A stretch of 64,000 bases of DNA from an uncultured Actinomycetota bacterium (GCA_963837995.1 CAWIPS010000010.1:34285-98284); one strand, 5' to 3'. Counted from the first letter of the stretch, positions 1 through 22,419 are shown. Notes: generated from the letters alone by a model not told the origin. Translations and numbers: made by a program.

Positions 1-368
1 CCGGCGACGTCCATCCGCAGCTCTGCGAGACCGAACAGCCGAGCGACGAAGGGCTGCACGATGTCGATGCCTTGGATCCGGTCGACCCGGATCCTGCGGG
101 ACTGACGGGAGATGACACCGGTGTCCACACGCAGCTCGTCGGACTCGATCCAGTACTTCGTGCGCAGCCAGGACGTGAACCCGTAGACGCCTCCTGCGAC
201 CAGGATCAGGAGAAGCACCCAGGCGACCGGGCCGAGCCGACCACGCAGCAGGTCGTCCCAGGAGGAGACGAACACAGCAACGAGCAGGATCGCACCGCGC
301 ACCAGCGGAGTGAGCGGTGAGAGCCGTCGGTAGGGGTGCGGGGTCCCTGGCTCGGGGGCCGAGATCAC
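1..368 (-). CDS. PH-domain (bPH_2, YdbT-like) membrane protein, 3' part runs off the window
   Basis: Manual translation from GTG at 368 (GTGA overlap with upstream stop): MISAPEPGTPHPYRRLSPLTPLVRGAILL...WLRTKYWIESDELRVDTGVISRQSRRIRVDRIQGIDIVQPFVARLFGLAELRMDVAG, a typical YdbT pattern; paired with the YdbS-like gene. Confidence 0.8.
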   Translation of the reverse strand, partial: MISAPEPGTPHPYRRLSPLTPLVRGAILLVAVFVSSWDDLLRGRLGPVAWVLLLILVAGGVYGFTSWLRTKYWIESDELRVDTGVISRQSRRIRVDRIQGIDIVQPFVARLFGLAELRMDVA

Positions 369-856
369 AGCCCTGCTGCCTGCGCCTGACCCAGCGACGT
401 CAGCCGGTCCCTCAGCCGGGCCGCCTCGGCCGCCGGCAGGCCAGGTATCCGGGCGCTGGTGCCGGGGCTCGCGGTGTGCAGGTGGACGCTGGCAACCTTG
501 AACGCCTGCTCCAGCGGACCCGCGTGCACGTCGACGTACTGCATGCGCCCGTAGGGCACGACGACGAGGGTGCGGATGAGGGCACCGTGCTTGATGTAGA
601 GGTCCTCGTCGCGCTCGGCGTACCCCCACCATCGTGCGTTCCGGCCGATGACCCACCACCCGAAGACCGTCAGACCCAGCGTCAGGACGACGGCGCCCGT
701 CCAAGACCACACAGGCAGGGAGAACAGCAGCCCGGCCACCACCGCTGCCGCGACGACCACCAGTGCGACTCCGACCAGCTTGGTACGGCGCAGCCGGGCC
801 AGCGCCGGCGACACCGGCTGCCAGTCGCTGCCCGGCGGGGCGAAGAGGTCGTCCAC
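365..856 (-). CDS. PH-domain (bPH_2, YdbS-like) membrane protein
   Basis: Two TM segments followed by YAERDEDLYIKHGALIRTLVVVPYGRMQYVDVHAGPLEQAFKVASVHLHTAS, characteristic of YdbS. Confidence 0.85.
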   Translation of the reverse strand: MDDLFAPPGSDWQPVSPALARLRRTKLVGVALVVVAAAVVAGLLFSLPVWSWTGAVVLTLGLTVFGWWVIGRNARWWGYAERDEDLYIKHGALIRTLVVVPYGRMQYVDVHAGPLEQAFKVASVHLHTASPGTSARIPGLPAAEAARLRDRLTSLGQAQAAGL

Positions 857-1136
857 ACTCGTGAGGCTACGCGCAGCATCCGCAGCGGCTCAGGAGGTCG
901 ACCGCCTGACCTTGGCGAGCTCGTCCAGCACATCGACGTACTGGCGCCCGTGAGCGGGCCTCTTGCCTCCAACAGGGGCATCGGCGCTCCAATGCCATGT
1001 CCGAGCCCTCGGCGTGTGCTCGGAATGTCGACGTCCCGGCCCTGTATGTTGCTGCGGAAGATGGTCATTGATCGAATACGTCAACGTCGATAACTGGACT
1101 CCACGAAAAGCACCATCAGCTCGAAAGGATAATGGG

Positions 1137-2303
1137 GTGACGCTTGATCGCAGCGTCGTTACTCCGCGATCAGGAGTCATCTGGATCAGCGGGTTCTCAG
1201 GATCGGGCAAGACCACCGTTGCCCGCGAGGTAGAGAGTCTCCTTCGCCGTGGAGGCCAGCGAGTGATCCTTCTTGACGGCGACGATCTGCGGAGCATCTT
1301 CGCCGATCGGTGGGGATACGAGAGATCTGAGCGCGTCGAACTCGCCCGAGTCTACTTCCGACTCTGCAGCCACCTGGCCTCTCAGGGCTTCGTCGTAGTT
1401 ATCGCCGCCATCGCGATGTATGACGACGTTCGGGCCTGGGTACATACGAACGTTACTAACAGCACCGAGGTCTTTCTGGATGTTCCGCGTCAAGTCCGCT
1501 TGACGCGCGACGCGGGTACTAAGAAGGTCTACAGCTCCGGAGTTGACCTGGAAGCCATCTATGACCCTTCCGTGAGCCCCGACCTGCGCATAGAGAACTT
1601 CGGGGAGAAGTCGGCCGTCGATACGGCCAACCAGATTGTCGCGTTCTTCCTGGATCAGGATGCCACTGACGAGTCGGACCGGGGCAAGAGCGGCCACTGG
1701 AACACTTACTATGCCATCACAATCGGAGCATTGGACCCATCGCCGTTCGCCATTACCGCGGAGGAGCGAATGCCTGGCGCCTCCGTTGTTCTCGATGTGG
1801 GCTGCGGCAATGGTCGCGACACCTCCTACATCGACAACCGGGGTCACCGGGTCACCGGTCTCGACAGCTCAGCATCCGCCATCGCCCTATGCGAAAAGGT
1901 TCACGAGGCTTCCTCGGCCGACTTCGTCAGCGGGAGTGTGTCCGAATACGTCGACGCATGGACAGATCGGTTCGATGTTCTTTACAGCCGCTTTGTCCTT
2001 CATGCAATGACTGAGTCGGAGGAGCTGGGGCTTTGGCGAGACGCCCGCAAGATTCTCCGTCCGAGCGGGATTGTGATGGTGGAATGCCGGTCGATCAAGG
2101 ATCCTCTTGCACGACAAGGAGAAGTCCTGAGTCCTACTGAGCGAATCGCCGGCCACTACAGACGATTCATCGTCATCGGAGACCTGTGCCGCAGGCTCGA
2201 GGACCGAGGCTTTGTCATTGACTCGGCAACCGAGGCGAACGGTCTGGCCGTGCACGGCGATGAAGATCCTGTGGTCATCCGGGTATTCGCCCACAAGGGA
2301 TGA
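1137..2303 (+). CDS. Adenylyl-sulfate-kinase-like (CysC/PRK05541-type) domain fused to class I SAM-dependent methyltransferase
   Basis: N-domain IWISGFSGSGKTT (P-loop), LLDGDDLR, EVFLDVP...RD; C-domain VLDVGCGNGRD, GLDSS, YSRFVLHA. Start placed at GTG 1137 behind AAGGA rather than ORF-track 963. Confidence 0.85.
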   Translation: MTLDRSVVTPRSGVIWISGFSGSGKTTVAREVESLLRRGGQRVILLDGDDLRSIFADRWGYERSERVELARVYFRLCSHLASQGFVVVIAAIAMYDDVRAWVHTNVTNSTEVFLDVPRQVRLTRDAGTKKVYSSGVDLEAIYDPSVSPDLRIENFGEKSAVDTANQIVAFFLDQDATDESDRGKSGHWNTYYAITIGALDPSPFAITAEERMPGASVVLDVGCGNGRDTSYIDNRGHRVTGLDSSASAIALCEKVHEASSADFVSGSVSEYVDAWTDRFDVLYSRFVLHAMTESEELGLWRDARKILRPSGIVMVECRSIKDPLARQGEVLSPTERIAGHYRRFIVIGDLCRRLEDRGFVIDSATEANGLAVHGDEDPVVIRVFAHKG

Positions 2304-3463
2304 GCACGATGGAGAGCGAGCCAAGCAGTTATCGCGTGGAGGTGGGAGGGCTTGAGCACCTTCGAGGGTACGAGCGCAAGGTCGTGTTCCACGGCGTGAA
2401 TAAGAGCGGCTCCATGGTCATGACCCGGGTGCTCGACAACGCCTACCATAACGCCGGCCGCGGCCACCAGTTCTTCTCGACCTACCTCAAGGTTCCTCGA
2501 GACCACGACCGTCTGCTGGCGCTCATCGACCGCTCGAAGGGACACGCCTTTCTAGGAGCCCATTACCTGTACGGCGCGTTCACGCTCAGGCCCGGAGAGC
2601 ATCTCCTGGCGACTCAGTTCCGCAACCCCCTTCCGAGGGTGCTTTCGTGCTACCAGTGGCTCAAGAACAAGCGTGACGCGGTTGGCGAGCCCTACCCGTC
2701 CTTCGAGGAGTGGGTGCCCAAGACCCGAGGGGTCACCCATTCACAAGTCGAGCAGTTCGCTCTCGGGTTCTCGCCCGAGGGCCGGGCCAAGGTGTCGACC
2801 AGTCATGGGGACGAGCTTCTGGAGCAAGCCATGACGAACATCGAGACGGATGTCTCATGGTTCGGAATAGCTGAGTACTTCGAGGAGAGCGCTTTCGCGA
2901 TGGCCGCCATCTGCGGTCTCCCCACGCTCCCCGCCTGGCAACGGGACGATCGCAACGCCAACCGAGCGCTTGTCGAGGACTGGCCCGCTGGCCGCGTCGA
3001 TCTGGTGCGTGAGGTGTTCCGTTGGGACTTCCTCCTGTACGAGTGGGCGCTGGAACGATTCCGCAACAACCTGTCGCGACTGGAGTTCGGCTCGGACCTC
3101 GAGCGTTACAAGAGTGCGTGCGCCGACCAGTACAAAGATCGGCTCGACCCTGGAGGTCGACCTGTCGACGAGACCGGGATGGACCGAATCGCGGTCCACC
3201 TTGCGCCCGAAGCCTTTGTTCGCTTACGCGCTGAGCACACGGCTCAACAGGCCACGGTGGTGCGCTTGAAAGGTCGGATCCGTGCACTGGAGAAGTCGCA
3301 GGCTGCCAGCGCAGCCTCCGCCGATCGGGCGCAAGAGGCGTTGGCTAGTCTCGCCAAGGGCGAGGAGAATCGACTCTCGCCACCCGGTTCCCACCATTCG
3401 ACGCAGATCTCTCGCTCATGGAGTCGTCGTTTGGTCGGTCGTTTGCGTCGGTTGCTCCAGTAA
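2300..3463 (+). CDS. Sulfotransferase-fold protein (Sulfotransfer_2-like) with C-terminal coiled coil
   Basis: VVFHGVNKSGS (5'-PSB position), FRNPLPRVLSCYQW (3'-PB R-x-P-x-x-R-x-x-S-x-Y), FGIAEYFEES, DFLLYEWALERF; ATGA overlap with the upstream gene. Confidence 0.7.
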   Translation: MSTMESEPSSYRVEVGGLEHLRGYERKVVFHGVNKSGSMVMTRVLDNAYHNAGRGHQFFSTYLKVPRDHDRLLALIDRSKGHAFLGAHYLYGAFTLRPGEHLLATQFRNPLPRVLSCYQWLKNKRDAVGEPYPSFEEWVPKTRGVTHSQVEQFALGFSPEGRAKVSTSHGDELLEQAMTNIETDVSWFGIAEYFEESAFAMAAICGLPTLPAWQRDDRNANRALVEDWPAGRVDLVREVFRWDFLLYEWALERFRNNLSRLEFGSDLERYKSACADQYKDRLDPGGRPVDETGMDRIAVHLAPEAFVRLRAEHTAQQATVVRLKGRIRALEKSQAASAASADRAQEALASLAKGEENRLSPPGSHHSTQISRSWSRRLVGRLRRLLQ

Positions 3464-3605
3464 CCGCTGAAATGATGAATGCGTTTCCTTCCGCAAACCT
3501 TGGGTGAGGCACAGCACTGTCCTGATTGGTGCCTGCGCGGGTCGGGAGGTTCAACCCTGTCGCACGTCCTGGAGAGGCTTCACATGGCGGGACGAGGACG
3601 AGTTG

Positions 3606-6600
3606 CTAACCGAGAACGGTCTGGTGCCAAAGGGACACCGAGTCAGGAGTCAGCATCCTGTTTGCGACGACCCAATCCCTCGACAGCGTTGCGGGGCCGT
3701 GCTCGCGGCGCTCCACGATGACTTCCTCCAAGCGGTCCACCCACTCAGCGATGGTGTCCGCCGTGGTGGCGAGCTCCGGAGGGGGCGATGCGTACGGCCC
3801 CACCGGAGATGCCACCGTTCTCAGTTCCATTGCGCCGTACTCCAAGAGCTTGAGGTCGCTCTTAGCGAGGTTGAAGGTCGTTGCCGCGAGGGGCGCCACT
3901 GCCCCGTCCCAGCGACCGCGATTCTGACGCAGCCACGTGACGAAGGCCGGATACTCGGCACTCGAAGGAACCAAACGCCGCGCCCCCTCGGGGAGATCGA
4001 CGCTCGACACTCCGACGATCTCAAGAACCACTCGCTGTGCGAGACGGTCAGACAGCGCGGCGGGAAGCCCGTCGAGCAACGCCAGATCCTCCCCATGCGT
4101 CTTGCTACCCATGTACAACAGACGTGATTCTGTCGACTTCTGGAGTTTTGGCCCAGTCGTTGGGGTCACCGACGACAGCCACACGCGAGGGTCGAGCTCG
4201 TTTCGAATCTCGACAACGTCGCACTCGGGTCCGTCCAGACTCGAAACGGCTGCGGCAAGTGCCGAAGTACTGACGATGACGCGGTCAGCCTGCCCCAGCA
4301 CTGAACGGAAGGCCTCCAGCCTCTCGCGGTCATAACCTTGACCCAACAGCCGTTCCACCGCAGAGGCAGTGACCAGGTCGTCATCCATTTCGACGACGAG
4401 ACGAGTCTCGCTCTTCTTGACCCGTTCCAGAACGGGACTGGCCAAATGGTCCGGAATCGCATCCCGGATAACGAGCAGGACGTCGACGTCTCTGCAAGCG
4501 CCTGATGCATAGTCCCTGACATCAAGCCTTTCATAGTGTGCGAACGGGGAAGCAAAGCCATAGCGGATTCGCCGATATGCCCTGACGTCGGCTGAGGCAG
4601 GTGGCGCGACGCCCACGGCCTTGTCAAGCACACCCACAGAGACGCTGTCATGGCGTCGCTTGGACCGGACGTACAGACGGTTGTAGTCGTTTCCCATGCT
4701 TCGCAGACTTCGGACCGCATCGACTGGAGCAGCTCCGGTGGCCGAGGAGATCGTGGAAGGGGCACTTGCCAACTCCAGAATTGTTTGCGCAGCTTGCTCG
4801 GGATCGTCGTGCGGAAACGTGATCCCGCCACCGTGATGACGGATTCGGTCGGCCGGTGCCCCGAGGTCTGTGGCGATCACCGGCACGCCCATCGCCCACG
4901 CCTCGCTCACCGTGTGAGCATATGTCTCCGGCCAGATAGAGAATATGCCCACAAGATCGGGGTCGAGCTCGCGCGCGATTGCCGGGAGGTCGAGGCGAAG
5001 GTACTCGCCATGCACGACCGCGAAGTCGACCATGGATTCGCCAGCCGTTCCAAGGACGTGCCACTCGACGTTCGCACCGACGAGGCCCGCGATCTGGCGA
5101 AGCAGGGCCGTCCCTTTGTGCGGGCCCCATACGGCTGGCGCGAGCACCCGAAGCGGACCTGGGAGCCGGTCAGCACGACGCTGCCGGATCAGCTCGAAAC
5201 CGCTCAAGTCTCGTCCGTGCTCGATGATGTCGAGCTTGTCTGCCACGTTTGGGTAAGCGGCGAGCAACGTCTTGGCGGCCGAAGGCGTCGTGGCCACCAC
5301 CCTCTCTGCGGCATTCAAGACTCCCGCCATGCGCGACTGCCAGTCACGAATCCAGCCATTCTTGAGGGGCTGTTCGAACGCGAGTGCTGCTGGGCCGGTA
5401 AGGGTGCAGTTGGTCTGGCCGGGCGTGCAGACACCGCCACAGTAGTTCATCTTCTCGTCTAGCAAAGTCAACGTCGGGCAGACGGGATGGAAGTCATGCG
5501 TCGAGTAGATGAATGGGACAGAGAGGGTCTCACAAACAGTCGCGACAACTGACGTGGGAGTGTGGATCAGGTGGCGGATATGGACCGTTTCGACGTTCCA
5601 CTCTATGAGCACACTGATGAGATACTCGGCATAACGGTCATCCCAGTCGTCTTGTGGAAGGTACGCCGTCTCCGGTTCCCAAGAGTCAATCGAATGGATC
5701 TTTCCGTCCCGGAACTGACCAAGGCTGATGTTGTAGCCCTTGGTGCTCTCGAGAACCAGACTCTCCTGTTCTTCCGTCAGACTCTCCATGAGGTCAACAT
5801 TCGTCTGAGGGGTGCCACCTACCGACCGATGGACGATGTAAAGGCGACGCGGCAGAACCGCGCGCAAGGTCGAAAGCTTCTGCTGAGCACCTCGAGCCTG
5901 CTGACTGATAGATGCGAGTTCAGCGCCCCCCACCCAAGCCCTTACACGGCTCGTGTAGTGCGGCCAACGCGCGTCGACGGCCTGGCGCCCCGACCTGATA
6001 AGGCCTTCGCTCCTACTGCCGAAGGACTGGCTTCGTACGTGTCTGACGAAGACGTGAGGCGCATAGTAGTTCTTGTAGCCGAGGGCATCCGCACGAAGGG
6101 ACCAGTCGTTCTCTTCACCGTATCCTTGCGGGAAGAGCTCCTCGTCGAAGTACCCGACCTGGTTCAAAGCCCTCCGGAGGAGGTAGACGCAGAACCCGTG
6201 GGCCGTGGGAACACATTGAGCCCACACTCGCATGTCTCGCGAGAGTTGCCGACTGATCTCGGCAGAACTGAGCTGTGGCGCCCACTCGTTGGCTCGGCCC
6301 GGCACCGGAAGGGACATCGCGCCTGCATTGTCAGACGTCGGAGTCACCGACGCCACTCTCGGCGAGGAGTACGCAACCCACCGCAGTCGTTCGACGCATA
6401 GCGGGCCAACGACTGTGTCGCTGTTCAAGAGAACAACGTCATCGGCCCCAGCGATTGAGACGCCGTGATTCGCAGTGGCCGTATAGCCCAGATTCTTCTC
6501 GTGTACGACAAGCTCGAAGCCAAACTTCTCGACGCACTGCCGAATGACCGCCTGCGTTGTCACGTCGGTGCTCGCATCGTCAATCACGATCACACGCCAA

Positions 6601-6791
6601 TCCCCGACGTGCTGGCCGAGCGACTCCAGACAGTCCCGGACAGCCGAACCCCCGTTGAAGACTGGCACAATAACCGTTGTGGCCGGCGCGTCGACCAGTT
6701 GACGCATCATGCCCAGGTAGTCAACGCCCTCAGTCGCCGTGACCCCGGCGCACCGTTCGCTGTTGAAGGCGCGATATGGGCCCTCACTCAT
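3606..6791 (-). CDS. Three-domain glycosyltransferase (GT2 + GT4 + GT4-like)
   Basis: GT2: VIVPVFNG, VIVIDDAS, VLLNSDT, GYGEENDW; GT4: SIWPETYAHTVSEAWAMGVPVIATDLGA; third domain: VEMDDDL, FNLAKSDLKLLEYG. Confidence 0.9.
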   Translation of the reverse strand: MSEGPYRAFNSERCAGVTATEGVDYLGMMRQLVDAPATTVIVPVFNGGSAVRDCLESLGQHVGDWRVIVIDDASTDVTTQAVIRQCVEKFGFELVVHEKNLGYTATANHGVSIAGADDVVLLNSDTVVGPLCVERLRWVAYSSPRVASVTPTSDNAGAMSLPVPGRANEWAPQLSSAEISRQLSRDMRVWAQCVPTAHGFCVYLLRRALNQVGYFDEELFPQGYGEENDWSLRADALGYKNYYAPHVFVRHVRSQSFGSRSEGLIRSGRQAVDARWPHYTSRVRAWVGGAELASISQQARGAQQKLSTLRAVLPRRLYIVHRSVGGTPQTNVDLMESLTEEQESLVLESTKGYNISLGQFRDGKIHSIDSWEPETAYLPQDDWDDRYAEYLISVLIEWNVETVHIRHLIHTPTSVVATVCETLSVPFIYSTHDFHPVCPTLTLLDEKMNYCGGVCTPGQTNCTLTGPAALAFEQPLKNGWIRDWQSRMAGVLNAAERVVATTPSAAKTLLAAYPNVADKLDIIEHGRDLSGFELIRQRRADRLPGPLRVLAPAVWGPHKGTALLRQIAGLVGANVEWHVLGTAGESMVDFAVVHGEYLRLDLPAIARELDPDLVGIFSIWPETYAHTVSEAWAMGVPVIATDLGAPADRIRHHGGGITFPHDDPEQAAQTILELASAPSTISSATGAAPVDAVRSLRSMGNDYNRLYVRSKRRHDSVSVGVLDKAVGVAPPASADVRAYRRIRYGFASPFAHYERLDVRDYASGACRDVDVLLVIRDAIPDHLASPVLERVKKSETRLVVEMDDDLVTASAVERLLGQGYDRERLEAFRSVLGQADRVIVSTSALAAAVSSLDGPECDVVEIRNELDPRVWLSSVTPTTGPKLQKSTESRLLYMGSKTHGEDLALLDGLPAALSDRLAQRVVLEIVGVSSVDLPEGARRLVPSSAEYPAFVTWLRQNRGRWDGAVAPLAATTFNLAKSDLKLLEYGAMELRTVASPVGPYASPPPELATTADTIAEWVDRLEEVIVERREHGPATLSRDWVVANRMLTPDSVSLWHQTVLG

Positions 6792-7218
6792 TGGCGTCCC
6801 TGCGGGGCATCAATCTTCCACCGAACCTATCGGCGACATGCAGTGCAGCCCTGACGCTCTTGCGGCTCTCGAGCGCGACCTTCTCCTCCTCGAGGTGGCT
6901 CAACCTGTCGCGCAACCGTCTGACTCGAGCGCGCGCCAGACTGAGTTGGCCCTTTCGCTCAAGCGACCTACGCCCAGCAACTTGCATGCTGCGCCGCAAC
7001 CTGACCTGCTCACGCTGCAGACCTGCGACTCTCTCCCTCAGACTTCGGTTAGCGCGCTTGAGTCGGGCGATGTCACGAGCTAGTTCCGATATGCGAACAG
7101 CACGCTGAGCCGCCACGAGCCTGTACTCGCTGTCGAGCAGGGCCGACCGCTCGAGAATTGTTCGGATGCCCTCAAGTGTGTTTGCCAACTGTGGGCCAGG
7201 CGTTTCCCTCACGTCCAT
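6784..7218 (-). CDS. Small coiled-coil protein, translationally coupled to the three-domain GT
   Basis: 144 aa with heptad-like RISELARDIARLKRANRSLRERVAGLQREQVRLRR...LSHLEEEKVALES; its stop overlaps the GT start region. Confidence 0.55.
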   Translation of the reverse strand: MDVRETPGPQLANTLEGIRTILERSALLDSEYRLVAAQRAVRISELARDIARLKRANRSLRERVAGLQREQVRLRRSMQVAGRRSLERKGQLSLARARVRRLRDRLSHLEEEKVALESRKSVRAALHVADRFGGRLMPRRDANE

Positions 7219-7427
7219 GCATGTCAGTCTGCCACGCGTCGGGTTCCGATTTTCGTTGCGTCGACCTACCTACATCTCGGGCCGGACCACCAGAAGAGAC
7301 CTCCACGCCAAACAGCCGCCGCGGATATTGTCTGACCGGCCAGTTCCAGAGTCGAACTTGAACGAAAGACTGCTCTCGAACGGCGGGCGCTCCCTTGCGA
7401 GGTATGGAAGCTGTCGTTTTCCCAAGC

Positions 7428-10400
7428 TCAGAAGCTGGGTGCCGACCGGTGTCGCCGGAGCTCCAACGCAGTGTCAAGCAGTTGTATGGCCCGCCGCTCG
7501 AACGAGTGCTGCTGATGCACTCGACGAGCGACCCTGCGTCGCTCCTCGGCGGTGCCGAAGGTGTGGTCGAGCGGGTCGTCGCGGACGAGGCCGGCCAGCG
7601 ACGTCGCGTCGGTGGCCACCTGAACTGAACTGCCGAACATGCCCTCCAGACCCGCCACGTCGTCCGAGATCACCCGGGCGCCGCTGGCGACCGCGTCGAA
7701 GAGCCGGTTGGACAGGAAGCCCTCACGCCGCATGTCCTCCCAGTGGTCGTTGAGCACCACGCCTGCGGAGGCGTAGAGCGCCCCCAGCTCGCGGTTCGGG
7801 ACGAAGGTCGCCTTGATGAGGTGCCGGGGGATCAGGTCCTCCCAGTCCGACCCGTAGACCGACAGCGGAAGGCCGGAGGCGACCGAGTGCCTGACGATCT
7901 GCCGGTAGTGCTGTCGCGACCCACCGACGAAGACCACCGGCTCTCCGGCGTCGGTCCGGCCACGGTCCGGGTGGAACAGCTCGGGATCCGTCGCCTGCAG
8001 CAGCGGGTCGATCCGCAGCGACCAGTGCCGGGACATCTTCTCGGCCCAGGAGTGGCTCGCAGCGAACACCCGGTCGTAGCAGGCGGCCTCCCTCCGCGTC
8101 AGCAGCTCCGGATGGGAGATCACCCACGCCAGGTTGACCTGCCCGTAGGCCGGCTGGAACGCCTCGAGGCCGCGCAGCACCAGGACCACGTCGTCGTGGT
8201 GCCCCGAGTGCCGGTGGAAGTCCTCACGGTGGTCGACGACGACCTGCTGGTCGAGCCCGCGCAGCGCGTCCGCCAGGCTGCGCGCGAAGTGGGTGTCGCC
8301 CCAGAGCTCCCGTCGCTCCCCGGCCGGTGACGCGACCTTCAGGGCCCAGCGCAGCCGGGGCAGCGTTCTCGTGCACACTCACCCGGGCGCGGGACAACAC
8401 CGGCTGCGGTGCGCACAGCCGGCGTTCCACACCCTCGCTCGGCACGGTCGCATAGCCGTGCACGTCGAACCCACGACTGGCCCACAGCCGTCTGTCGTCG
8501 CGCGGGGAGCGAGCCTCCCACCGGTCCAGGAACAGCTCACGCTCCAGGGCGGGCACGGAGCCCGCCCCGCGTTCAGGGGTCTGTGCGGGCGGCGTCCGGC
8601 GACCCCCTCGTGAGCGGGCCGGTCGGCTCACCCGTGACTCCGGCGCCAGGACGAAGCGGCCGCGGCGCGTGTGCAGCAGCCGGAGGCAGAGGTCGACGTC
8701 CTCGAGGCCGCCCCGGAACAGCGGGTCGAACCCTTGCAGAGCCACCAGGTCGTCGTACCGCATCGCCGTCGCTGCCCGGCTCAGGGCCATCAGCGGTACG
8801 TCGTCCAGACCCGCCGCGTCGGCGGCAGGGAACCCCTGGAGGAACTCGTAGGGCAACCCGCCACAGCTGGGGAAGGCGAAGCCCGCACAGTCGATGGAGC
8901 CGCTGGCACCGGTCACCAGGGCCTGCGCTCCCAGCACGTCGGGGGACTCCAGTGCCCCGACCAGCGGATCCAGCCAGCGGGGCTGGACGCGCACGTCACC
9001 GGCGAGCCACACGACCACCGAGCCGTTCGCCTGCCGCAGGGCGAGGTTGCTGCTGAGCGCGGCGCCGACCGACGCGGGGATGTGGACGACGCGGACGTCG
9101 TCGAACCTGGCCTCCAGCGAGGACAGCACCACCGAGGTGAGGCTCTGCGACCCGTCGTCGACGACCAGGCACTCGCAGGACCGGCCTGCGGGCGCCCCGG
9201 CCGTGACCACCTGCCTGACGCAGGCCACCGCCTGGCGCCATCCCGCAGCGCTGACCACGACGGTGACCAGGTCCGTGCGCTGGTCACGACGCGACAGGGC
9301 GTCCCAGTCCACGGCGCACCGGTTGAACGCCACGTCGGCCCAGGTCGACACGCGGGCGTGGTCCAGCACGGACGGCTCGACCTCGGCGGCCAACGCCTCC
9401 ACGACCTCCTCGCGGCTCGTGCCCACCGCAGCCACCGACCGGACGGGGAACCGGGACGCCAGGCGGAGCACCAGGTCGGTCTCCCACGAGCCGGGCAGCT
9501 GCTCGTCGAAGCCGCCGACCGCCCAGAACGCGCTCCGGCGGACCACCAGGCGGGCCAGCTCGACGGTCACCGGGGACGCCGGCGGCCCCAGGGCCGCGGA
9601 TGCGGCGGCGTACACGTCGTGCGTGCCGGGCCGCACCACCCGCATCACGTCGGAGGCGGCGGGCGCGTCCTCCTCGGTGCAGACCGCCTGCAGCAGCCGG
9701 AGGCGTCCCGGGGCCCACACGTCCCCGGGGAGGGCCCAGGCGAGGAGGTCACCGGCGGCTCGCCGGGCGGCCCGGTTGAGACCCACCGACGGACGCTCGC
9801 CGGCGGTCCCGTCGTAGGACACGACCACCAGTGCCGCCTCCGGGAACCACCGCTCGAGCTCTCGCCTCAGCTCCACGCCGCGACGGGTCCCGTCGGCGAC
9901 GACGACGACCTCGCGGGCTGCCTGCTCCTGGTCGAGGACCGAGCGCACGGTGCGCTCGAGGGCCCTCGGGTCGGCTCCGGCGGGCACCACCACGGTGACC
10001 AGCGGCTCGCCCGGCCCGGGAGCCGATGACCCCGGAGCCGGCTCCGGCTGCGGTGGGTGCCTGGTCCGGGACCTGGGGACCCGGCTCCTGCGCTCCAGCC
10101 ACTCGCGGTGCCGGGCGGCCACCCAGTCGACCAGCCCCCGGGGCTCGCCCTCGTGCGGCTGGTACCAGTCGTTCGGCGCGAGCCGCTGGCGGGCCCCGAC
10201 CTCCAGGTAGTGGCCCAGCGGCCCGAGGGGATGGGCGGCGGCGGCCGGGCTCGCCGCCCGGTAGGCCTTGAGGTCGAACAGCGGGTGGGTGGCCACGTCG
10301 TAGCGCTGCTGCCGGATGTAGGTGGCCAGGGGGTTGCCGCCCTCGCCCAGTGAGGGGCAGGCGGCGACGACGTGCTCGGTGGCGAACAGCGGGTGCGGGT

Positions 10401-14944: not shown

Positions 14945-16360
14945 ATGCCCCGAACCCGTGCCGCCCTGGTCCTCGCGCTGACGACCCTGCTGGTGGCCGG
15001 CATCTGCGCTGTGACCACCTCGCCCTCGCAGGCGACGGTCCGGACGAGGGCCTCGTTCCACCTCTCCTCGCAGCATCCCGTCGCCCGTGAGTTCTTCACG
15101 GCGTCCGGACGCGTGTCCACGCGCTTCCGGCGTCCGGTCCTGGTGCGGGCGCTGATCGGACGCAGCTGGCGGGTGGTCCGGCGCGCGAAGACCTCCCCCC
15201 GCGGGGTCTACCGGGTCACCCGGCTCGCGACCACGACTCGTCGCAGGTACTCCGTGATGGTGCCCGCGGTGCGCCGGTCCGGCCGGATCTTCACCGGGGT
15301 CGTCACCGGCGCCCGGATCGTGTCCCCCGTCCGACAGTCCGCCTCAATGGACGTGCTCCCCCCGATCGCCCAGCGCGGCTCGGCTGCCGCGGACTCATCC
15401 TCGGCGGAGAACTCGGTGGTCGCCCGGTTCTCGCCCGCTCGTCCGGGGCGTCCCGTCACGTTCCGCGAACGGAAGCCCGGCGGCCGCTCGGTGGTCCTCG
15501 GACGTGCCACCCGCCAGGGAGCCGACGGCACCGCCTACTTCTTCGGGGCTGCCGGGACCCGCGTGTTCCAGGCGACCACGGCGTCGCGCTCCGGCGCCCC
15601 GGCGGTGACCACCGGCGTCGCCGGCAGCACCTGGGTCCCCACGTTCGACGACGACTTCTCCGGCACGACCCTGGATCCGGCCAAGTGGACCTATCGCACC
15701 GGCCGGACGTCGTCACGCACCCACTCGACCAACGACAAGCGCTCGGTGTCGATGGGGTCCGGGACGCTGCGGTTGCAGGTCAGGCTCGACCCGTCGGCGC
15801 CCAACACCACCGCAGCCAACACCAGGTACCTCAACGGCCAGATCGGCACGCTCGGCACGTACGACTTCACCTACGGTGTCGCAGCGGCCCGGGTCAGGTT
15901 CTCCCCCGTCCGCGGTCAGCACGGGTCGTTCTGGCTGCAGTCCCCGACCTATGGCCGCGTCCCCGGCAACCCGGCAACCAGCGGCACGGAGATCGACGTC
16001 GCCGAGTTCTTCGGCAGTGGCTACCCGCAGGGCGGCTTGGCCAACTACGTCTACTACGCGGATCGGACCGGTCACAACGTCAAGATCGGTGGCGTGTGGC
16101 CACGAGCCGCCACGCTGGCCCCACGAGGAGACACCTGGTGGAACAGCTTTCATGTGTTCTCGGTGAAGTGGGGTCCGCGGGGCTATACCTTCTACGTCGA
16201 CGGACGCGTGCTGTACGCCACCACCCAGGCCGTCTCCAGGACCAAGCAGTACCTCATTCTCAGCCTGCTCACCTCTGACTGGGAGCTGCCGGACCTCCGA
16301 CGAGCCAGCCTGCCGACGTCGATGTCCGTGGACTGGGCGAGGGTGTGGCAAGCCGGATAG
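14945..16360 (+). CDS. Secreted glycoside hydrolase family 16 protein
   Basis: Signal peptide MPRTRAALVLALTTLLVAGICAV; TFDDDFSGTTLDPAKW, YGVAAARVRF, catalytic GTEIDVAE (ExDxxE), SFHVFSVKW, MSVDWARVW. Confidence 0.85.
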   Translation: MPRTRAALVLALTTLLVAGICAVTTSPSQATVRTRASFHLSSQHPVAREFFTASGRVSTRFRRPVLVRALIGRSWRVVRRAKTSPRGVYRVTRLATTTRRRYSVMVPAVRRSGRIFTGVVTGARIVSPVRQSASMDVLPPIAQRGSAAADSSSAENSVVARFSPARPGRPVTFRERKPGGRSVVLGRATRQGADGTAYFFGAAGTRVFQATTASRSGAPAVTTGVAGSTWVPTFDDDFSGTTLDPAKWTYRTGRTSSRTHSTNDKRSVSMGSGTLRLQVRLDPSAPNTTAANTRYLNGQIGTLGTYDFTYGVAAARVRFSPVRGQHGSFWLQSPTYGRVPGNPATSGTEIDVAEFFGSGYPQGGLANYVYYADRTGHNVKIGGVWPRAATLAPRGDTWWNSFHVFSVKWGPRGYTFYVDGRVLYATTQAVSRTKQYLILSLLTSDWELPDLRRASLPTSMSVDWARVWQAG

Positions 16361-18356: not shown

Positions 18357-20070
18357 CCGCCGGGGCCTTCCTGCGGCGCACGGACCAGCCCGCGCGTGCC
18401 GGGCAACGACTGGCCCTCGCTGCGGCCCGACCCGCTCGGTGAGCTGGCGCCCACCCGGACGGTCACGTGGTGGTCCCTGCCTACCAGGCGTGGCGGACCC
18501 TGCCTTACACGCTGGCGGCACTGGCCCACCAGACCTACCCCGCGGAGCTGACCGAGGTGGTCATCGTCGACGACGGCAGCGACCCACCGCTGACGCTGCC
18601 CCGCGTGCGCCCGGCGCACACCAGGATCGTGACGACCGCCGGTCCTGGGGACGTGCGCATGCCTGCCACGTGGGGCCTGCGCGGCCGCGGGCGACGTGCT
18701 GCACTGGCTGGACGCGGACATGCTTCCGCATCGCGACGAGATCGAGGCGCAGATGCGCTGGCACCACCTGCTCGGACTACGCCGTCGTGCTCGGCACCAA
18801 GACGTTCGTCGACGTCGACCGACGGCCTGCCTGGCCTCGAGGACGTCGCCGGAGGCGGTGCGCGAGGGCCGGGCCGCCGAGCTGTTCGCGGGCCGGTGGA
18901 CCGCGCCGCACGAGTGGGTCGAGGAGCACCTCGAGCGCACCCACGGGCTCACCGCCAACCCGACCACGAGCTATCTCGTCCACGTCGGCGCGAGCGCATC
19001 CGTCGGCCGCGATCTCTACCTGGACTCCGGAGGGATGGACCCGGCGCTCAAGGCGGGCGAGGACATCGAGCTCGGCTACCGGCTCGCCCAGCAGGGCGCG
19101 GTCTGTTCGTGCCCGGACCGCGAGGCCCGGTCCTGGCACCTGGGCCGGTCGACGCTGATGGGGTGACCAGGAGGCAGTCAACGCCTACAACCGGCCCTTC
19201 GTCACCGACCGGGTGCCCGACCTGCGGCACTGGCGGACCAAGGGTCGCTCCTACACCGTCCCGTGGGTCGAGGTGGTGGTCGACGCGACCGACCACACCT
19301 TCGAGGAGGTCCGGCACTCCGTCACCGGCGTCCTGACCGGCAGCTCCCAGCGATGTCCGGGCCGTCGTCGTCGGTCCCTGGTCGCGGCTGACGGACGGAC
19401 GCCGGCCCCGCTGCTGGGGACCCGGACCTGAACCTGCGGATGGTCCGCGCGGAGCTGGTCGGCGACCCCCGCGTCCGGTTCGTCGAGGAGCTGCCCCGCA
19501 CGGCGTTCCCGGCGACGTTCCGGCTGCTTCTGCCGGCCGGCTGGGCACCGGGCCCGACACCCTCCGCCGGCTGGCCCGCGAGATGACCCACCGGGACCGT
19601 GGGCTGGTCTCGCTGGCACTGCCGGACGGCCGGGTGGCGCGTCTGGAGCGGACCTCCGCGTTCAACCGGGCGGCCCGCGTCGCAGCCAGCCGACCCGACG
19701 GCACCACGAGGATGGGCTCGACGAGGTGGTCGACCAGGTGTCGAGGGCCTGGTGGTTCGACGGCGCCGAGGAGGGGTTCCACCACCTCGCCGACGCGACG
19801 GCGCCGTCGGCTGGGGCCGCCTCAGCAGCCGGCCCGGCCACCTCGGCTCCGGCCACCGGGCCCGGCCACCCGCGGCCCCGGCGGAGGTCCGCAGCCAGGA
19901 GACGGAGGGCGGCCGCGGCCGCCCGGACCGGGGCGGCGCGGCGCTCGGACCTGCCCGCCACAGACGCCCCCGCGGACCCCGGTGCACCCGCCGACGCCGC
20001 GGAGCGCGGACCCGCCCGCAGGCTGCTCGGGCGGGCGGTCCGCCGCCGGCAGCAGCCCCCCGCTCGATGA
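18353..20070 (+). CDS. GT2 family glycosyltransferase, multiply frameshifted
   Basis: Fragments [55 protein letters not shown] in successive frames; ends ...QQPPAR-TGA overlapping the nuoD-like ATG. Confidence 0.65.
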
Positions 20071-21224
20071 GCGGGCTCACCCGGTCGACCGTCGGGGTGG
20101 GGGCCGCGGCCGGCGTGACCAGCCACGACCTGGTCCTCGACATGGGCCCCCACCACCCCTCCACGCACGGCATGCTGCGGCTGCGGCTGACGCTCGAGGG
20201 GGAGCACATCGTGGGCTGCGAGCCGGAGGTGGGGTTCCTGCACCGGGGGGTCGAGAAGCTCTTCGAGGTGCGGGACTACCGGCAGATCATCATGCTCGCC
20301 AACCGGCACGACTGGCTCTCGGCGTTCTCCTCCGAGCTGGGGGTCGTGCTCGCGGTGGAGCGGATGCTCGGCCTGGAGGTCCCGCAGCGGGCCACCTGGA
20401 CGCGCACCCTGCTCGCCGAGCTGAACAGGGTGCTGAGCCACCTGATGTTCCTCGGCGCCTGCCCCGTGGAGCCGGCGCCGTCGCCGATGCCGACGTTCCG
20501 CGAGCGGGAGGCGGTCCAGGCGGTGATGGAGGAGCTGTCCGGTGGCCGGATGCACTACATGTTCAACCGGGTCGGCGGCCTCCGGGAGGACCTCCCTGCG
20601 GGGTGGCCGGCCCGGGTCGCCCGGGTGGTGGCCCAGGTCCGCGCATCGCTCCCCCGCGTCGAGGAGGCGGTCCTCGGCAGGCCGGGCTTCGACTCCGCCA
20701 CCCGTGGCATCGGGGTGCTGGACCCCGCGCTGGTCGACGCGTACGGCGTCAGCGGCCCCCTCGCGCGGGCCTCCGGCGTCGACGTCGACCTGCGCCGCGA
20801 CGAGCCCTACCTCGCCTACGCCGACCTGCTCCGCGACGGGGTCCTCGAGGTGCCGGTGCGCCACGAGGGCGACTGCGCCGCGAGGTTCCGGCTGCTGCTG
20901 GACCAGGTGGGAGCGTCCCTGACCCTCGCCGAGGCGTGCCTCGAGCGGCTCGGGTCCCTCGGGACGGGGCCGGTCAACGTGCGCCTCCCGAAGATCCTGC
21001 GGCCGCCGGAGGGCTCGACGTACGCCTGGACGGAGAGCCCGCTGGGCATCAACGGCTACTACCTGGTGTCCCGCGCGGAGAGGACGCCGTGGCGGATGAA
21101 GGTGCGCACCGCGTCCTTCAACAACGTGGCGGTGCTGCCCGCCGTGCTGGAGGGCTGCCGGGTCTCCGACCTGGCGGTCGTCCTGGGGTCGCTGTTCTTC
21201 GTGGTGGGCGACATCGACAAATGA
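20067..21224 (+). CDS. nuoD: Stand-alone NADH-quinone oxidoreductase subunit D-like protein (49 kDa subunit family)
   Basis: [65 protein letters not shown], terminal VVGDIDK; no CxxC Ni ligands. Confidence 0.9.
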
Positions 21225-21306: not shown

Positions 21307-22419
21307 ATGCCGCCCGACGCCGACCCCGATCCGGGACAGGTGCTGCTCGTCGTCGTGACCGGGTCCGGGCGCAGCGGCACGAGCACGGTGGCCGGCACCC
21401 TGAAGATGCTCGGCAGCTATGTCCCGCAGCCCGAGATCGCGCCGAACGAGGCGAACCCCCGCGGCTACTTCGAGCCCAAGTGGACCGTCGCGTTCCACAA
21501 GAAGGTGCTGGCCGAGGCGGGCGTGCGCACCCTGGACGGCCGGCCCGTCGCCCGCGAGCTGATGGAGCCGGTGACCGGTCGCGAGGACCTGCTCGCCGAG
21601 CTCCGCGACTGGTTCGCGACCCAGCTCCAGGCCCCCCAGGTGGTGGTCAAGGACCCCCGCATCGTCTGGCTCCGCGACATGTGGTCCACGGTGGCCGGCG
21701 ACCTCGGCGCCGGCACCCGGTGGCTGACCATGCTGCGGCATCCCGCGGAGGTGGTCGGCTCCCGCGACCGGCACTACCTCGCGGGTGCCGACGACGTGCG
21801 CCGGTTGGCCCGCGAGACCGCCAACCTCGCCGGCTGGGTGAACGTCGGGCTGGTCAACGAGCGGGCCTCCCGGGGCGACCGGCGCGTCTTCGTGCACTAC
21901 ACGGACATGATCAGCGACTGGCGCTCTGCGATGGGGGTGGTGGCCGACCGGCTCGGTCTGACCTACGACGTCGACCTCGCCGACGGGGCGCACCACCCGG
22001 TCGACGACTTCATCGACGTCAGCCTTCGCCGGGTGCAGGTGACGCTCGACGACCTCGATGTGCCGGCCAACCTGCGGGAGATCGCCGAGACCGTGTGGAG
22101 CGGGCTCGCGGCACTGGCCCGGGACCCGGACGACGCGGCGGCCATGCGCAGCCTCGACGGTGCCCGCGAGGACTACGACCAGCTCTTCCGGCACTCCGCG
22201 GCCCTCGTGCAGGACGCCACCGACTTCGCCGTGCTCGACACCAGGCGGCGGGTGCGGCGCAACGTCACCCGCAGCCTGACCAAGGAGCTCCAGGCCCAGC
22301 AGACCGAGCAGGCCCAGCAGGCCCAGCAGGACGAGCAGGGGGGGCCGGCAGCGACGGGTGCGCTGCTGCGCCGGGCCGCCGCCAAGGCCCGGCGCGTGCT
22401 GAGCGAGCGCCGCGGATGA
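21307..22419 (+). CDS. Sulfotransferase-family protein
   Basis: VVVTGSGRSGTSTV, NEANPRGYFE, VVKDPR, MLRHPAEVVGS, VFVHYTDMISDW. Confidence 0.75.
   Translation: MPPDADPDPGQVLLVVVTGSGRSGTSTVAGTLKMLGSYVPQPEIAPNEANPRGYFEPKWTVAFHKKVLAEAGVRTLDGRPVARELMEPVTGREDLLAELRDWFATQLQAPQVVVKDPRIVWLRDMWSTVAGDLGAGTRWLTMLRHPAEVVGSRDRHYLAGADDVRRLARETANLAGWVNVGLVNERASRGDRRVFVHYTDMISDWRSAMGVVADRLGLTYDVDLADGAHHPVDDFIDVSLRRVQVTLDDLDVPANLREIAETVWSGLAALARDPDDAAAMRSLDGAREDYDQLFRHSAALVQDATDFAVLDTRRRVRRNVTRSLTKELQAQQTEQAQQAQQDEQGGPAATGALLRRAAAKARRVLSERRG

What the first reader, a model, noticed from the sequence alone, without database searches (positions are those of the whole stretch)
960..7540. Low-GC island encoding a candidate sulfate/methyl glycan capping and chain-length module
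Seen: four genes with foreign codon usage, namely a nucleotide-kinase/methyltransferase fusion, a sulfotransferase-fold protein with a coiled-coil tail, a free coiled-coil protein, and a three-domain GT2-GT4-GT4 enzyme. Established: in E. coli O9a, WbdD (kinase + methyltransferase + coiled-coil ruler) caps and measures the chain made by the multi-domain polymerase WbdA. Inference: this is an analogous actinobacterial terminator system split differently. The kinase would make a 3'-phospho-nucleotide donor, the sulfotransferase-fold protein and MTase would install a (methylated) acidic cap, and the coiled coils would act as the ruler. I do not know of such a system being described in this group.
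Basis: partly seen in the sequence, partly recalled or inferred. Interest (0 to 1): 0.82.

Follow-up and report, generated by a model that had tools for sequence, protein, structure and literature searches.

The report
Acquired glycan polymerase and sulfation-methylation island
A horizontally acquired four-gene island in a high-GC bacterium's cell-wall sugar locus encodes a large sugar-chain polymerase, its small helical partner, and a rare enzyme trio conserved across phyla (sulfotransferase, APS-kinase-like enzyme, methyltransferase) that probably sulfates and methylates the chain, possibly as a length-setting end cap.

Summary
Window ~871-7456 is a low-GC, four-gene insertion. A same-genus relative has the two flanks 1.26 kb apart, and 40 relatives searched lack the sulfotransferase.

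The genes are as described, with refinements:
- P0001 is an APS-kinase-like/SAM-methyltransferase fusion, probably starting at 1133.
- P0002 has an HS2ST-like sulfotransferase fold, a long helix and a basic amphipathic end, but no heptad signal.
- P0003 is a GT2 + GT4 + unassigned GT-B-like polymerase.
- P0004 is a small Arg-rich helical protein.

The WbdD/WbdA analogy is partly supported. Kinase, methyltransferase and sulfotransferase form a strict triad (24/24 loci, several phyla). P0003 relatives sit beside Wzm/Wzt exporters. Many are fused N-terminally to a sulfotransferase or methyltransferase plus coiled coil, the published terminator-ruler-polymerase layout. P0004 matches the end of that coiled coil.

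Against it: the fused sulfotransferases are Sulfotransfer_3-type (like host gene 21307-22419), not P0002-type. P0004 homologues also occur without the triad. This contig has no exporter and the genome no Wzt cap-binding module. The kinase lacks canonical APS-binding residues.

The scan has noted sulfotransferase-coiled-coil-GT fusions on other DNA. I found no paper describing sulfate terminators.

The parts
871..7456 (.). Horizontally acquired low-GC island of four genes
   Evidence: GC and GC3 drop. Same-genus genome G056 matches window 1-871 and 7456-9981 with only 1,258 bp of normal-GC DNA between them and no island homologue. P0002 was not found in 24 same-genus and 16 same-order genomes.
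1133..2303 (+). P0001: APS-kinase-like domain fused to a class I SAM methyltransferase (longest ORF starts at 963; ATG 1133 is the likely start)
   Evidence: Pfam and NCBIfam hits. PDB hits to compact APS kinases and small-molecule methyltransferases. The kinase subfamily keeps the P-loop, LDGDxLR, an aromatic residue and DR, but has EL for EN, A(V/I)AM for ISP and a shorter lid without FTG. Start inferred from sequence and homologue lengths.
2300..3463 (+). P0002: HS2ST-like sulfotransferase-fold enzyme (residues 1-290), long helix (303-358) and basic amphipathic C-terminal helix (370-386); 4-nt ATGA overlap with P0001
   Evidence: Invariant H31, N34-K35-S36-G37, H88, R108, P110, R113, S116. 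Profile hit to HS2ST. AF2 model and Foldseek. Amphipathicity muH 0.59 and charge +6. The family has 65 representatives at E<=1e-30 among 1.84 billion.
3606..6791 (-). P0003: three-module glycosyltransferase (GT2, GT4, unassigned GT-B-like C-terminal domain); polymerase-type enzyme
   Evidence: Pfam. Full-length family of 338 proteins (E <= 0.001), often named 'O-antigen biosynthesis protein'. Conserved C-terminal motifs. AF2 pLDDT 88, pTM 0.89. Neighbours Wzm/Wzt in Galbitalea and Leifsonia. Fusions to terminator-like domains.
6784..7218 (-). P0004: small Arg-rich helical protein, 8-nt overlap with P0003; probable detached ruler-end/membrane-anchor segment of the polymerase complex
   Evidence: Small ORFs in the same position before P0003-family genes in L023, L049 and L048 share the motifs Y..A..R...I(T/S)EL and (K/W)(A/S)VR. 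An HMM of the coiled-coil end of 13 fused relatives finds P0004's ORF as the top hit among 37,908 genomic ORFs, E=0.016.
7428..8378 (-). P0005: host-encoded Glyco_trans_1_2 protein flanking the island; upstream of P0004-P0003 on the same strand
   Evidence: Pfam. GC3 0.91. 84% identical orthologue in G056. Homologues at 32-53% identity lie near the triad in six other loci.
21307..22419 (+). P0164: second, host-GC sulfotransferase (Sulfotransfer_3-like) with a helical/basic tail; same family as the sulfotransferase heads fused to P0003-type polymerases
   Evidence: Weak Pfam hit. 36% identity, E=1e-54, to the Nocardioides tailed sulfotransferase. 25-32% identity to the N-terminal domains of P0077, P0082, P0083, P0096, P0098, P0119 and P0127.

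Best explanation
The island is a mobile glycan 'build and finish' cassette inserted at the edge of a hypervariable wall-glycopolymer locus.

P0003 is a three-module polymerase. It would extend a polyprenol-linked glycan on the cytoplasmic face of the membrane. P0004 is translationally coupled to it. It is the free-standing equivalent of the coiled-coil end and basic helix that, in fused relatives, joins a terminating enzyme to the same polymerase.

The divergently oriented pair P0001-P0002 is one copy of a strictly conserved triad. P0002 is a PAPS-type sulfotransferase, held at the membrane by its helical spacer and amphipathic end, and it sulfates the glycan. The methyltransferase domain of P0001 O-methylates the glycan. 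The APS-kinase-like domain most likely supplies the 3'-phospho donor (PAPS from APS).

The modification most probably sits at the non-reducing end. There it would stop elongation, as WbdD does for WbdA. Export would use the genome's single distal, CBM-less Wzm/Wzt pair.

Shown: the folds, the conservation, the gene linkage, the fusions and the insertion. Inferred: the acceptor, the donor, terminal versus internal placement, and any ruler function.
For: - Island and empty site.
- Sulfotransferase fold with intact 5'-PSB and 3'-PB motifs and a His aligned to the HGH segment of HS2ST.
- Triad present in 24/24 loci with overlapping stop/start codons, and the only universal families in an unbiased ORF clustering.
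- Triad lies 9-25 kb from cysNC in three genomes and directly beside cysH/I/J/D in Luteimonas.
- P0003 family next to Wzm/Wzt.
- Eight of 24 long P0003 homologues begin with a GMHRSGTS sulfotransferase head (a coiled-coil-like stretch detected in seven) and then the whole polymerase. Others carry methyltransferase or Sulfotransfer_4 heads..
- In Oceanococcus such a fusion starts 82 bp after the triad.
- P0004 matches the conserved motif at the coiled-coil end.
- P0183 is a P0002-type sulfotransferase with a real coiled-coil tail, and P0190 fuses both sulfotransferase families.
- PMC11231755 states that a coiled coil carrying the terminator marks this assembly strategy.
- The genome has one Wzm/Wzt pair, at C7:575,440-576,991.
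Against: - No chemistry is known for any member.
- The sulfotransferase heads fused to P0003-type polymerases are P0164-like, not P0002-like.
- Most P0002 homologues lack any tail. The tail of the closest homologue is not basic.
- P0002's tail shows no heptad periodicity, and P0004 is marginal.
- P0004-like proteins occur with the polymerase where no triad is present. P0004 need not serve the sulfotransferase.
- There is no Wzm on the 217-kb contig and no Wzt_C anywhere in a 98% complete genome. Wzm is more than 250 kb from the triad in Sphingomonas and Aminobacter.
- The kinase has Leu for the canonical Asn, AAM for ISP, and a shortened lid. It falls below NCBIfam cut-offs.
- Ten of 11 triad genomes already have a canonical APS kinase, against 62.5% background in the phylum.
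- The P0004 match has only E=0.016.
Confidence: 0.45

Rival explanations
1. Decoration, not termination. P0003 and P0004 make a wall glycan, and the triad sulfates and methylates residues along the chain (charge and antigenic variation, phage evasion) with no role in chain length. P0004 is only a membrane tether or oligomerisation partner of the polymerase.
For: - The triad combines with many unrelated GT sets, and in L025 and L050 no glycosyltransferase gene was seen nearby.
- Most P0002 homologues have no tail.
- P0004-like ORFs occur without any triad.
- There is no Wzt cap-binding module.
- There is no heptad signal in P0002's tail.
Against: - P0003 relatives are repeatedly fused to sulfotransferase or methyltransferase heads on coiled coils. 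That layout is known only from terminators.
- P0004 matches the end of that coiled coil.
- Some P0002-type enzymes carry true coiled coils (P0183).
Confidence: 0.3
2. The kinase does not make PAPS. Either P0001 is a WbdD-like kinase-methyltransferase built on an APS-kinase scaffold that phosphorylates and then methylates the glycan end, while P0002 uses PAPS from the cell's own CysC. Or the kinase makes a different 3'-phosphonucleotide donor, as Cj1415 does, and the sulfotransferase-fold enzyme transfers a group other than sulfate.
For: - Systematic loss of canonical APS-contact residues in all triad kinases, and scores below NCBIfam cut-offs.
- A canonical APS kinase is present in 10 of 11 triad genomes, and directly adjacent in Luteimonas.
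- Kinase-methyltransferase fusion is the hallmark of the two known methyl-phosphate terminators, whose kinases are unrelated in fold.
- In L016 a short-chain dehydrogenase is fused as well.
Against: - The kinase keeps the catalytic LDGD, both Arg residues and the stacking aromatic residue of nucleotide-binding APS kinases. It passes the Pfam threshold. Its closest structures are active compact APS kinases.
- No glutamine kinase, cytidylyltransferase or amidohydrolase genes recur in the 22 clustered loci. Any donor must therefore be one kinase step from a common metabolite.
- Enrichment of canonical CysC over background is weak (P about 0.04, genomes not independent).
Confidence: 0.18
3. The triad acts on a non-glycan target (a lipid, a small metabolite or a protein), and its position next to P0003 here is incidental.
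For: L025 and L050 show the pair among unrelated genes. The methyltransferase resembles small-molecule methyltransferases.
Against: Most loci hold glycosyltransferases, sugar-nucleotide genes or Stealth/GT2 genes beside the triad. The best structural match is a carbohydrate sulfotransferase. There are fusions to Sulfotransfer_3 and to coiled coils.
Confidence: 0.07

Closest known systems
WbdD-WbdA of E. coli O9a / K. pneumoniae O3 (PMC3482155, PMC11231755)
   Same: A multi-module polymerase, plus a separate terminating enzyme set that includes a kinase-type domain fused to a methyltransferase. It also has a helical spacer and a C-terminal amphipathic membrane helix.
   Different: Here the kinase has the APS-kinase fold, not the protein-kinase fold. 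A sulfotransferase is added. The coiled-coil segment is a free protein coupled to the polymerase. The wzm/wzt genes are not in the locus and there is no Wzt cap-binding module. No chemistry is known.
WbbB (K. pneumoniae O12) and ORF6 of K. pneumoniae O7: terminator - coiled coil - GT modules in one protein (PMC11231755)
   Same: Long relatives of P0003 have exactly this order, with a sulfotransferase or methyltransferase head.
   Different: P0003 itself lacks the head and the coiled coil. The heads of its fused relatives are Sulfotransfer_3-type. Sulfate has not been reported as a terminator in the papers I could search.
PAPS-dependent carbohydrate sulfotransferases of the Sulfotransfer_2 / HS2ST type (PDB 4ndz, 3f5f)
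   Same: The fold, the 5'-PSB Lys/Ser loop, the 3'-PB Arg/Ser, and an aligned His.
   Different: About 15% identity and below every Pfam threshold. The bacterial family is small and always linked to a kinase and a methyltransferase.
C. jejuni O-methyl phosphoramidate pathway (Cj1415 kinase, Cj1419/1420 methyltransferases, Cj1421/1422 transferases; PMC11800397)
   Same: An APS-kinase homologue, methyltransferase(s) and a transferase working on a surface glycan. It is a precedent for an APS-kinase homologue with a non-APS substrate.
   Different: The donor-building genes (Cj1416-1418 equivalents) are absent from the island and do not recur in the triad loci.
Actinoplanes missouriensis wps-1 cluster (PMC13390465)
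   Same: An actinobacterial polysaccharide cluster with two sulfotransferases of different families, a SAM methyltransferase and a kinase-like protein. Sulfation is predicted, not shown.
   Different: It uses the Wzx/Wzy pathway, has a protein-kinase-like rather than an APS-kinase-like domain, and shows no polymerase-ruler architecture.

Membership tests
Polymerase-terminator-ruler glycan assembly (WbdD/WbdA, WbbB type) | Multi-module cytoplasmic polymerase used with a Wzm/Wzt exporter | tested here: met
   P0003 has three GT modules. Family members lie beside ABC2_membrane + ABC_tran genes in Galbitalea and Leifsonia.
Polymerase-terminator-ruler glycan assembly (WbdD/WbdA, WbbB type) | Terminating enzyme carried at the distal end of an extended coiled coil | tested here: inconclusive
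   Met in fused relatives. In the window, P0002 has a 56-residue helix with no heptad signal, and the coiled-coil-like protein P0004 carries no enzyme.
Polymerase-terminator-ruler glycan assembly (WbdD/WbdA, WbbB type) | wzm/wzt in the locus, and a Wzt carbohydrate-binding module that reads the cap | tested here: not met
   No ABC2_membrane on contig C10. No PF14524 in the genome. The only Wzm/Wzt-like pair is on contig C7.
Polymerase-terminator-ruler glycan assembly (WbdD/WbdA, WbbB type) | A non-reducing-end modification that stops elongation and sets chain length | not testable with these tools
   Needs glycan chemistry and mutants.
PAPS-dependent sulfotransferase | Sulfotransferase fold with 5'-PSB (Lys, Ser/Thr loop) and 3'-PB (Arg, Ser) motifs and a catalytic base | tested here: met
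   Invariant K35-S36-G37, R108, S116, H88. HS2ST profile hit. Foldseek hits are all sulfotransferases.
PAPS-dependent sulfotransferase | Match above the curated threshold of a sulfotransferase family model | tested here: not met
   No Pfam or NCBIfam hit for P0002.
Adenylyl-sulfate kinase (CysC) | P-loop, catalytic LDGD, Pfam PF01583 threshold | tested here: met
   77.6 bits against a cut-off of 21.1. Motifs conserved in the alignment.
Adenylyl-sulfate kinase (CysC) | Equivalog-level score and canonical APS-contact residues (EN Asn, ISP, lid FTG) | tested here: not met
   TIGR00455 83.4 bits against 138.7, and NF004041 115 against 127. EL, A(V/I)AM and a lid 5 residues shorter in all triad kinases.
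MeOPN (phosphoramidate) pathway | Glutamine kinase, cytidylyltransferase and amidohydrolase genes accompanying the 3'-kinase | tested here: not met
   The island has four genes only. Nothing beyond the kinase-methyltransferase and sulfotransferase ORFs is universal in 22 loci.

The most novel reading that the evidence does not exclude
The strictly conserved APS-kinase-like / methyltransferase / sulfotransferase-fold triad is not a plain PAPS sulfation kit. Its divergent kinase would either phosphorylate the glycan end itself, which would be a third, independent invention of the kinase-methyltransferase terminator, this time on an APS-kinase scaffold. Or it would make a 3'-phosphonucleotide donor other than PAPS, so that the sulfotransferase-fold enzyme installs a new kind of (methylated) acidic cap on bacterial surface glycans.
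Probability: 0.2. Interest if true: 0.85.

Novelty: new variant of a known kind. Interest (0 to 1): 0.6.

Why it matters
Chain-length control by a terminator on a coiled-coil ruler is established for methyl, methyl-phosphate and Kdo caps in a few Gram-negative O antigens. This locus and its relatives suggest that sulfate (with methyl) is a further cap, used from Actinomycetota to Proteobacteria. They also suggest that the ruler can be a separate small protein.

One 2026 paper says sulfated bacterial polysaccharides have been reported only in cyanobacteria (PMC13390465). Verified sulfated wall glycans in actinobacteria would therefore be new chemistry, with consequences for phage receptors, antigenicity and biopolymer engineering.

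The triad itself is an uncharacterised three-enzyme module whose kinase has an open substrate question. A few standard enzyme assays would settle it.

Tried and rejected
- Single-sequence search of P0002 against the PDB found nothing useful. Only the family profile worked.
- Pfam finds nothing in P0002, in its tail, or in P0003 residues 690-1061, even at E=10. The A2 profile finds no PDB chain for the C-terminal domain. hhalign of A2 against P0005 is insignificant. Foldseek on the whole P0003 model returns GT-A and GT-B enzymes but cannot be assigned to the third domain.
- BLASTP of P0004 against P0162 is insignificant (E=12). An HMM of the four small proteins does not significantly hit the fusion linkers. 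The reverse HMM does find P0004.
- The crude heptad test does not support a canonical coiled coil in P0002's tail.
- I considered the MeOPN reading and set it aside as the main explanation because the donor genes are missing.
- The CysC-redundancy argument turned out weak against a 62.5% background.
- The promoter/terminator scan gave nothing above chance.
- A 17-nt inverted repeat brackets the island, but it is no longer than other pairs in the region.
- The Cj1415 paper and the 2019 survey of terminator chemistries (Mann, Kimber, Whitfield, Glycobiology 29:822) are not held. I therefore cannot exclude that sulfotransferase terminators were predicted there.
- Naming the organism through cluster members failed.


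Full report
**Observation.** The window lies at C10:34285-98284 of a 4.34-Mb, 71% GC genome. Between about 1000 and 7500 the GC content falls to 0.58-0.65, against 0.69-0.77 on both sides. The four ORFs in this stretch have GC3 of 0.66-0.74, while host genes have about 0.9.

A DNA search of 30 same-genus genomes shows that the left flank (1-871) and the right flank (from 7456) are conserved at 66-79% identity. In genome G056 the two flanks lie 1,258 bp apart, separated by normal-GC DNA with no homologue of any island protein. Its P0005 orthologue is 84% identical. P0002 was not found in 24 same-genus and 16 same-order genomes. The island (~871-7456) is therefore a real, recent insertion or replacement.

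The surroundings are a hypervariable wall-glycopolymer locus of about 29 kb containing TagF-like, GT2 and GT4 genes, a GH16 gene and a second sulfotransferase. Conserved housekeeping genes bound it: bPH_2, and upstream radA, disA, clpC, lysS and coaX on one side; DUF3180, folK, folP, folE, ftsH and tilS on the other. High GC, this gene order and named Actinomycetota among the closest P0003 relatives fit it.

**The genes.**

- **P0001** joins an APS-kinase-like domain (PF01583, 77.6 bits) to a class I SAM methyltransferase. It falls below the NCBIfam cut-offs for adenylyl-sulfate kinase. Its likely start is ATG 1133, behind a GAAAGGA.
- **P0002** overlaps P0001's stop by ATGA. It has no family hit. 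A 27-member alignment shows invariant H31, N34-K35-S36-G37, H88, R108, P110, R113 and S116. These correspond to the two PAPS-binding motifs and a candidate catalytic His. The family profile matches heparan sulfate 2-O-sulfotransferase across the whole domain (E=1.2e-5). The AF2 model (pLDDT 88) returns only sulfotransferases at the top of a Foldseek search. After the catalytic domain come a 56-residue helix and a terminal helix, QISRSWSRRLVGRLRRLLQ (+6, amphipathic).
- **P0003** has GT2 and GT4 modules. Its strongly conserved C-terminal domain gets no Pfam or PDB sequence hit. In a confident model (pLDDT 88, pTM 0.89) this domain consists of two beta/alpha halves, which is GT-B-like.
- **P0004** overlaps P0003's start by 8 nt. 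It is a 144-aa protein with 35 Arg/Lys and only weak coiled-coil family hits.

**The co-occurrence test.** I examined neighbourhoods of P0002 homologues from metagenomes and from 14 species-representative genomes. A tblastn survey of 24 such loci finds the kinase, the methyltransferase and the sulfotransferase in every one. They are adjacent and almost always in that order. The first two are usually fused, and stop/start codons usually overlap. The hosts include Actinomycetota, Alpha- and Gammaproteobacteria, Myxococcota and Verrucomicrobia.

An unbiased all-against-all clustering of all ORFs in 22 loci confirms that only the kinase-methyltransferase and sulfotransferase ORFs are universal. 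The sulfotransferase family is rare. It occurs in 14 of about 185,000 species genomes by pattern scan and has 65 representatives at E<=1e-30 among 1.84 billion clusters.

The full P0003 architecture travels with the triad in only one other distinct locus (L023/L024). There it is again preceded by a small overlapping helical ORF. Elsewhere the triad sits beside other large multi-GT enzymes. In L025 and L050 it sits among genes with no glycosyltransferase hit.

**The polymerase and its partner.** P0003's full-length family has hundreds of members, often labelled 'O-antigen biosynthesis protein'. In Galbitalea soli and a Leifsonia strain it lies beside a Wzm (PF01061) and a short Wzt, so it belongs to ABC-transporter-dependent assembly.

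Of 24 longer homologues, eight begin with a GMHRSGTS sulfotransferase head; seven of them show a coiled-coil-like stretch, mostly at residues 270-435, and the complete GT2-GT4-GT-B unit follows in all eight. Most of the others carry an N-terminal extension of about 290-750 residues. Where a domain is on record it is Methyltransf_24, a SAM methyltransferase or Sulfotransfer_4. In an Oceanococcus MAG such a fusion starts 82 bp after the triad's sulfotransferase. In Luteimonas a sulfotransferase with about 300 residues of coiled coil overlaps the start of a 1305-aa multi-GT4 enzyme in the same cluster as the triad.

This is the terminator-coiled coil-polymerase layout that PMC11231755 describes as the characteristic marker of polymerase-terminator systems. 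That paper never mentions sulfate. I also found no paper combining sulfotransferase, coiled coil and WbdD.

At the end of the coiled coil the fusions share a motif, L(R/K)xRRSVRxALxxAxxxRPLFRxxRR. P0004 ends LESRKSVRAALHVADRFGGRLMPRR. An HMM built only from 13 fusions and searched against all 37,908 six-frame ORFs of this genome returns P0004's ORF as the top hit (E=0.016). The small ORFs of L023 and Galbitalea appear among the next hits. Small ORFs in the same position in L023, Leifsonia and Galbitalea share two short motifs with P0004. P0004 is thus best read as a detached ruler-end/anchor segment of the polymerase complex. The statistical support is modest.

**Limits of the WbdD analogy.**

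- The sulfotransferase heads fused to P0003-type polymerases are homologous to P0164, the host-GC Sulfotransfer_3-like gene at 21307-22419 of this window. They are not homologous to P0002.
- The two sulfotransferase families do cooperate. They co-occur in nine of 22 loci counting this window. They are fused in P0190, and P0183 is a P0002-type enzyme with a true coiled-coil tail.
- Most P0002 homologues have no tail. The tail of the closest homologue is different. P0002's own tail has no heptad periodicity above shuffles.
- P0004-like proteins occur where no triad was seen.
- This contig has no Wzm. The genome has no Wzt_C cap-binding module. Its only Wzm/Wzt-like pair is on contig C7.

**The kinase question.** All triad kinases keep the P-loop, LDGDxLR, a stacking aromatic residue and the DR Arg. 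All of them also replace the canonical EN with EL and ISP with A(V/I)AM, and shorten the lid, losing FTG. Their nearest structures are compact, active APS kinases.

Ten of 11 triad genomes also have a canonical APS kinase, 9-25 kb away in three of them. The background in the phylum is 75 of 120 genomes. The enrichment is therefore weak.

The precedent for an APS-kinase homologue with another substrate is Cj1415. Its partner donor-building genes are absent here. I therefore keep PAPS supply as the most likely role. I give about one chance in five that the kinase acts on the glycan or makes a different donor.

**Verdict.** The island encodes a polymerase, its detached ruler-end partner and a conserved sulfation/methylation triad. 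A chain-terminating cap is the best-supported reading but remains inferred.

The system is a new variant of the known polymerase-terminator kind. The scan has noted sulfotransferase-coiled coil-GT fusions on other genomes, and a similar kinase-methyltransferase plus sulfotransferase-like cassette next to a flagellin gene. Those are unchecked notes, which I did not use as evidence. An Actinoplanes cluster with two sulfotransferases, a methyltransferase and a kinase-like protein is the nearest published actinobacterial case, also without chemistry.

Noticed in passing
window 21307-22419 (+): A host-GC Sulfotransfer_3-like gene (P0164) has a Gln/Glu-rich helix and a basic end, and sits between an orphan NuoD-like gene and a TagF/GT4 gene. 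It is homologous to the sulfotransferase heads fused to P0003-type polymerases and to tailed sulfotransferases near the triad in eight other loci. The host may already make a sulfated wall polymer.
   Followed up: partly
window 801-817 and 7446-7462: A 17-nt inverted repeat (94% complementary) brackets the island almost exactly. It is no longer than other pairs in the region, so it may be chance.
   Followed up: no
window 19599-21224 (+): An orphan respiratory-complex-I 49-kDa (NuoD)-like ORF lies inside the glycosyltransferase operon, with no other nuo genes seen among the window ORFs that I scanned.
   Followed up: no
L035 287-2362 and L019 368-6339 (Luteimonas wenzhouensis): A 691-aa protein has a sulfotransferase domain, about 300 residues of coiled coil and NPLxHYLxxGxxEGR repeats. 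It overlaps the start of a 1305-aa multi-GT4 enzyme, with the triad and cysH/I/J/D/NC just downstream. This is a WbdD/WbdA-like pair with a sulfotransferase head.
   Followed up: partly
P0190 (711 aa): One polypeptide joins a P0002-type sulfotransferase (2-285) to a Sulfotransfer_3 domain (343-532). This implies that the two families act on the same substrate.
   Followed up: no
L016 7825-10008: A triple fusion of short-chain dehydrogenase, APS-kinase-like domain and methyltransferase (727 aa) lies upstream of the sulfotransferase, with an ABC transporter pair 1.4 kb downstream.
   Followed up: no
L015, L018, L028, L029 (Nocardioides): The triad sits directly after a GT2 / Pterin_bind / unknown / RibD_C gene row and near two GH16 genes. 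It is 20-24 kb from the canonical APS kinase. GH16 also occurs in this window's locus (14945-16360).
   Followed up: no
window ~900-29700 compared with G052:C3 and G019:C6: The space between the bPH_2 gene and the P0005 orthologue is 12-16 kb in two same-genus genomes, 1.26 kb in G056 and 6.6 kb here. This is a hot spot for swapping glycan cassettes.
   Followed up: no
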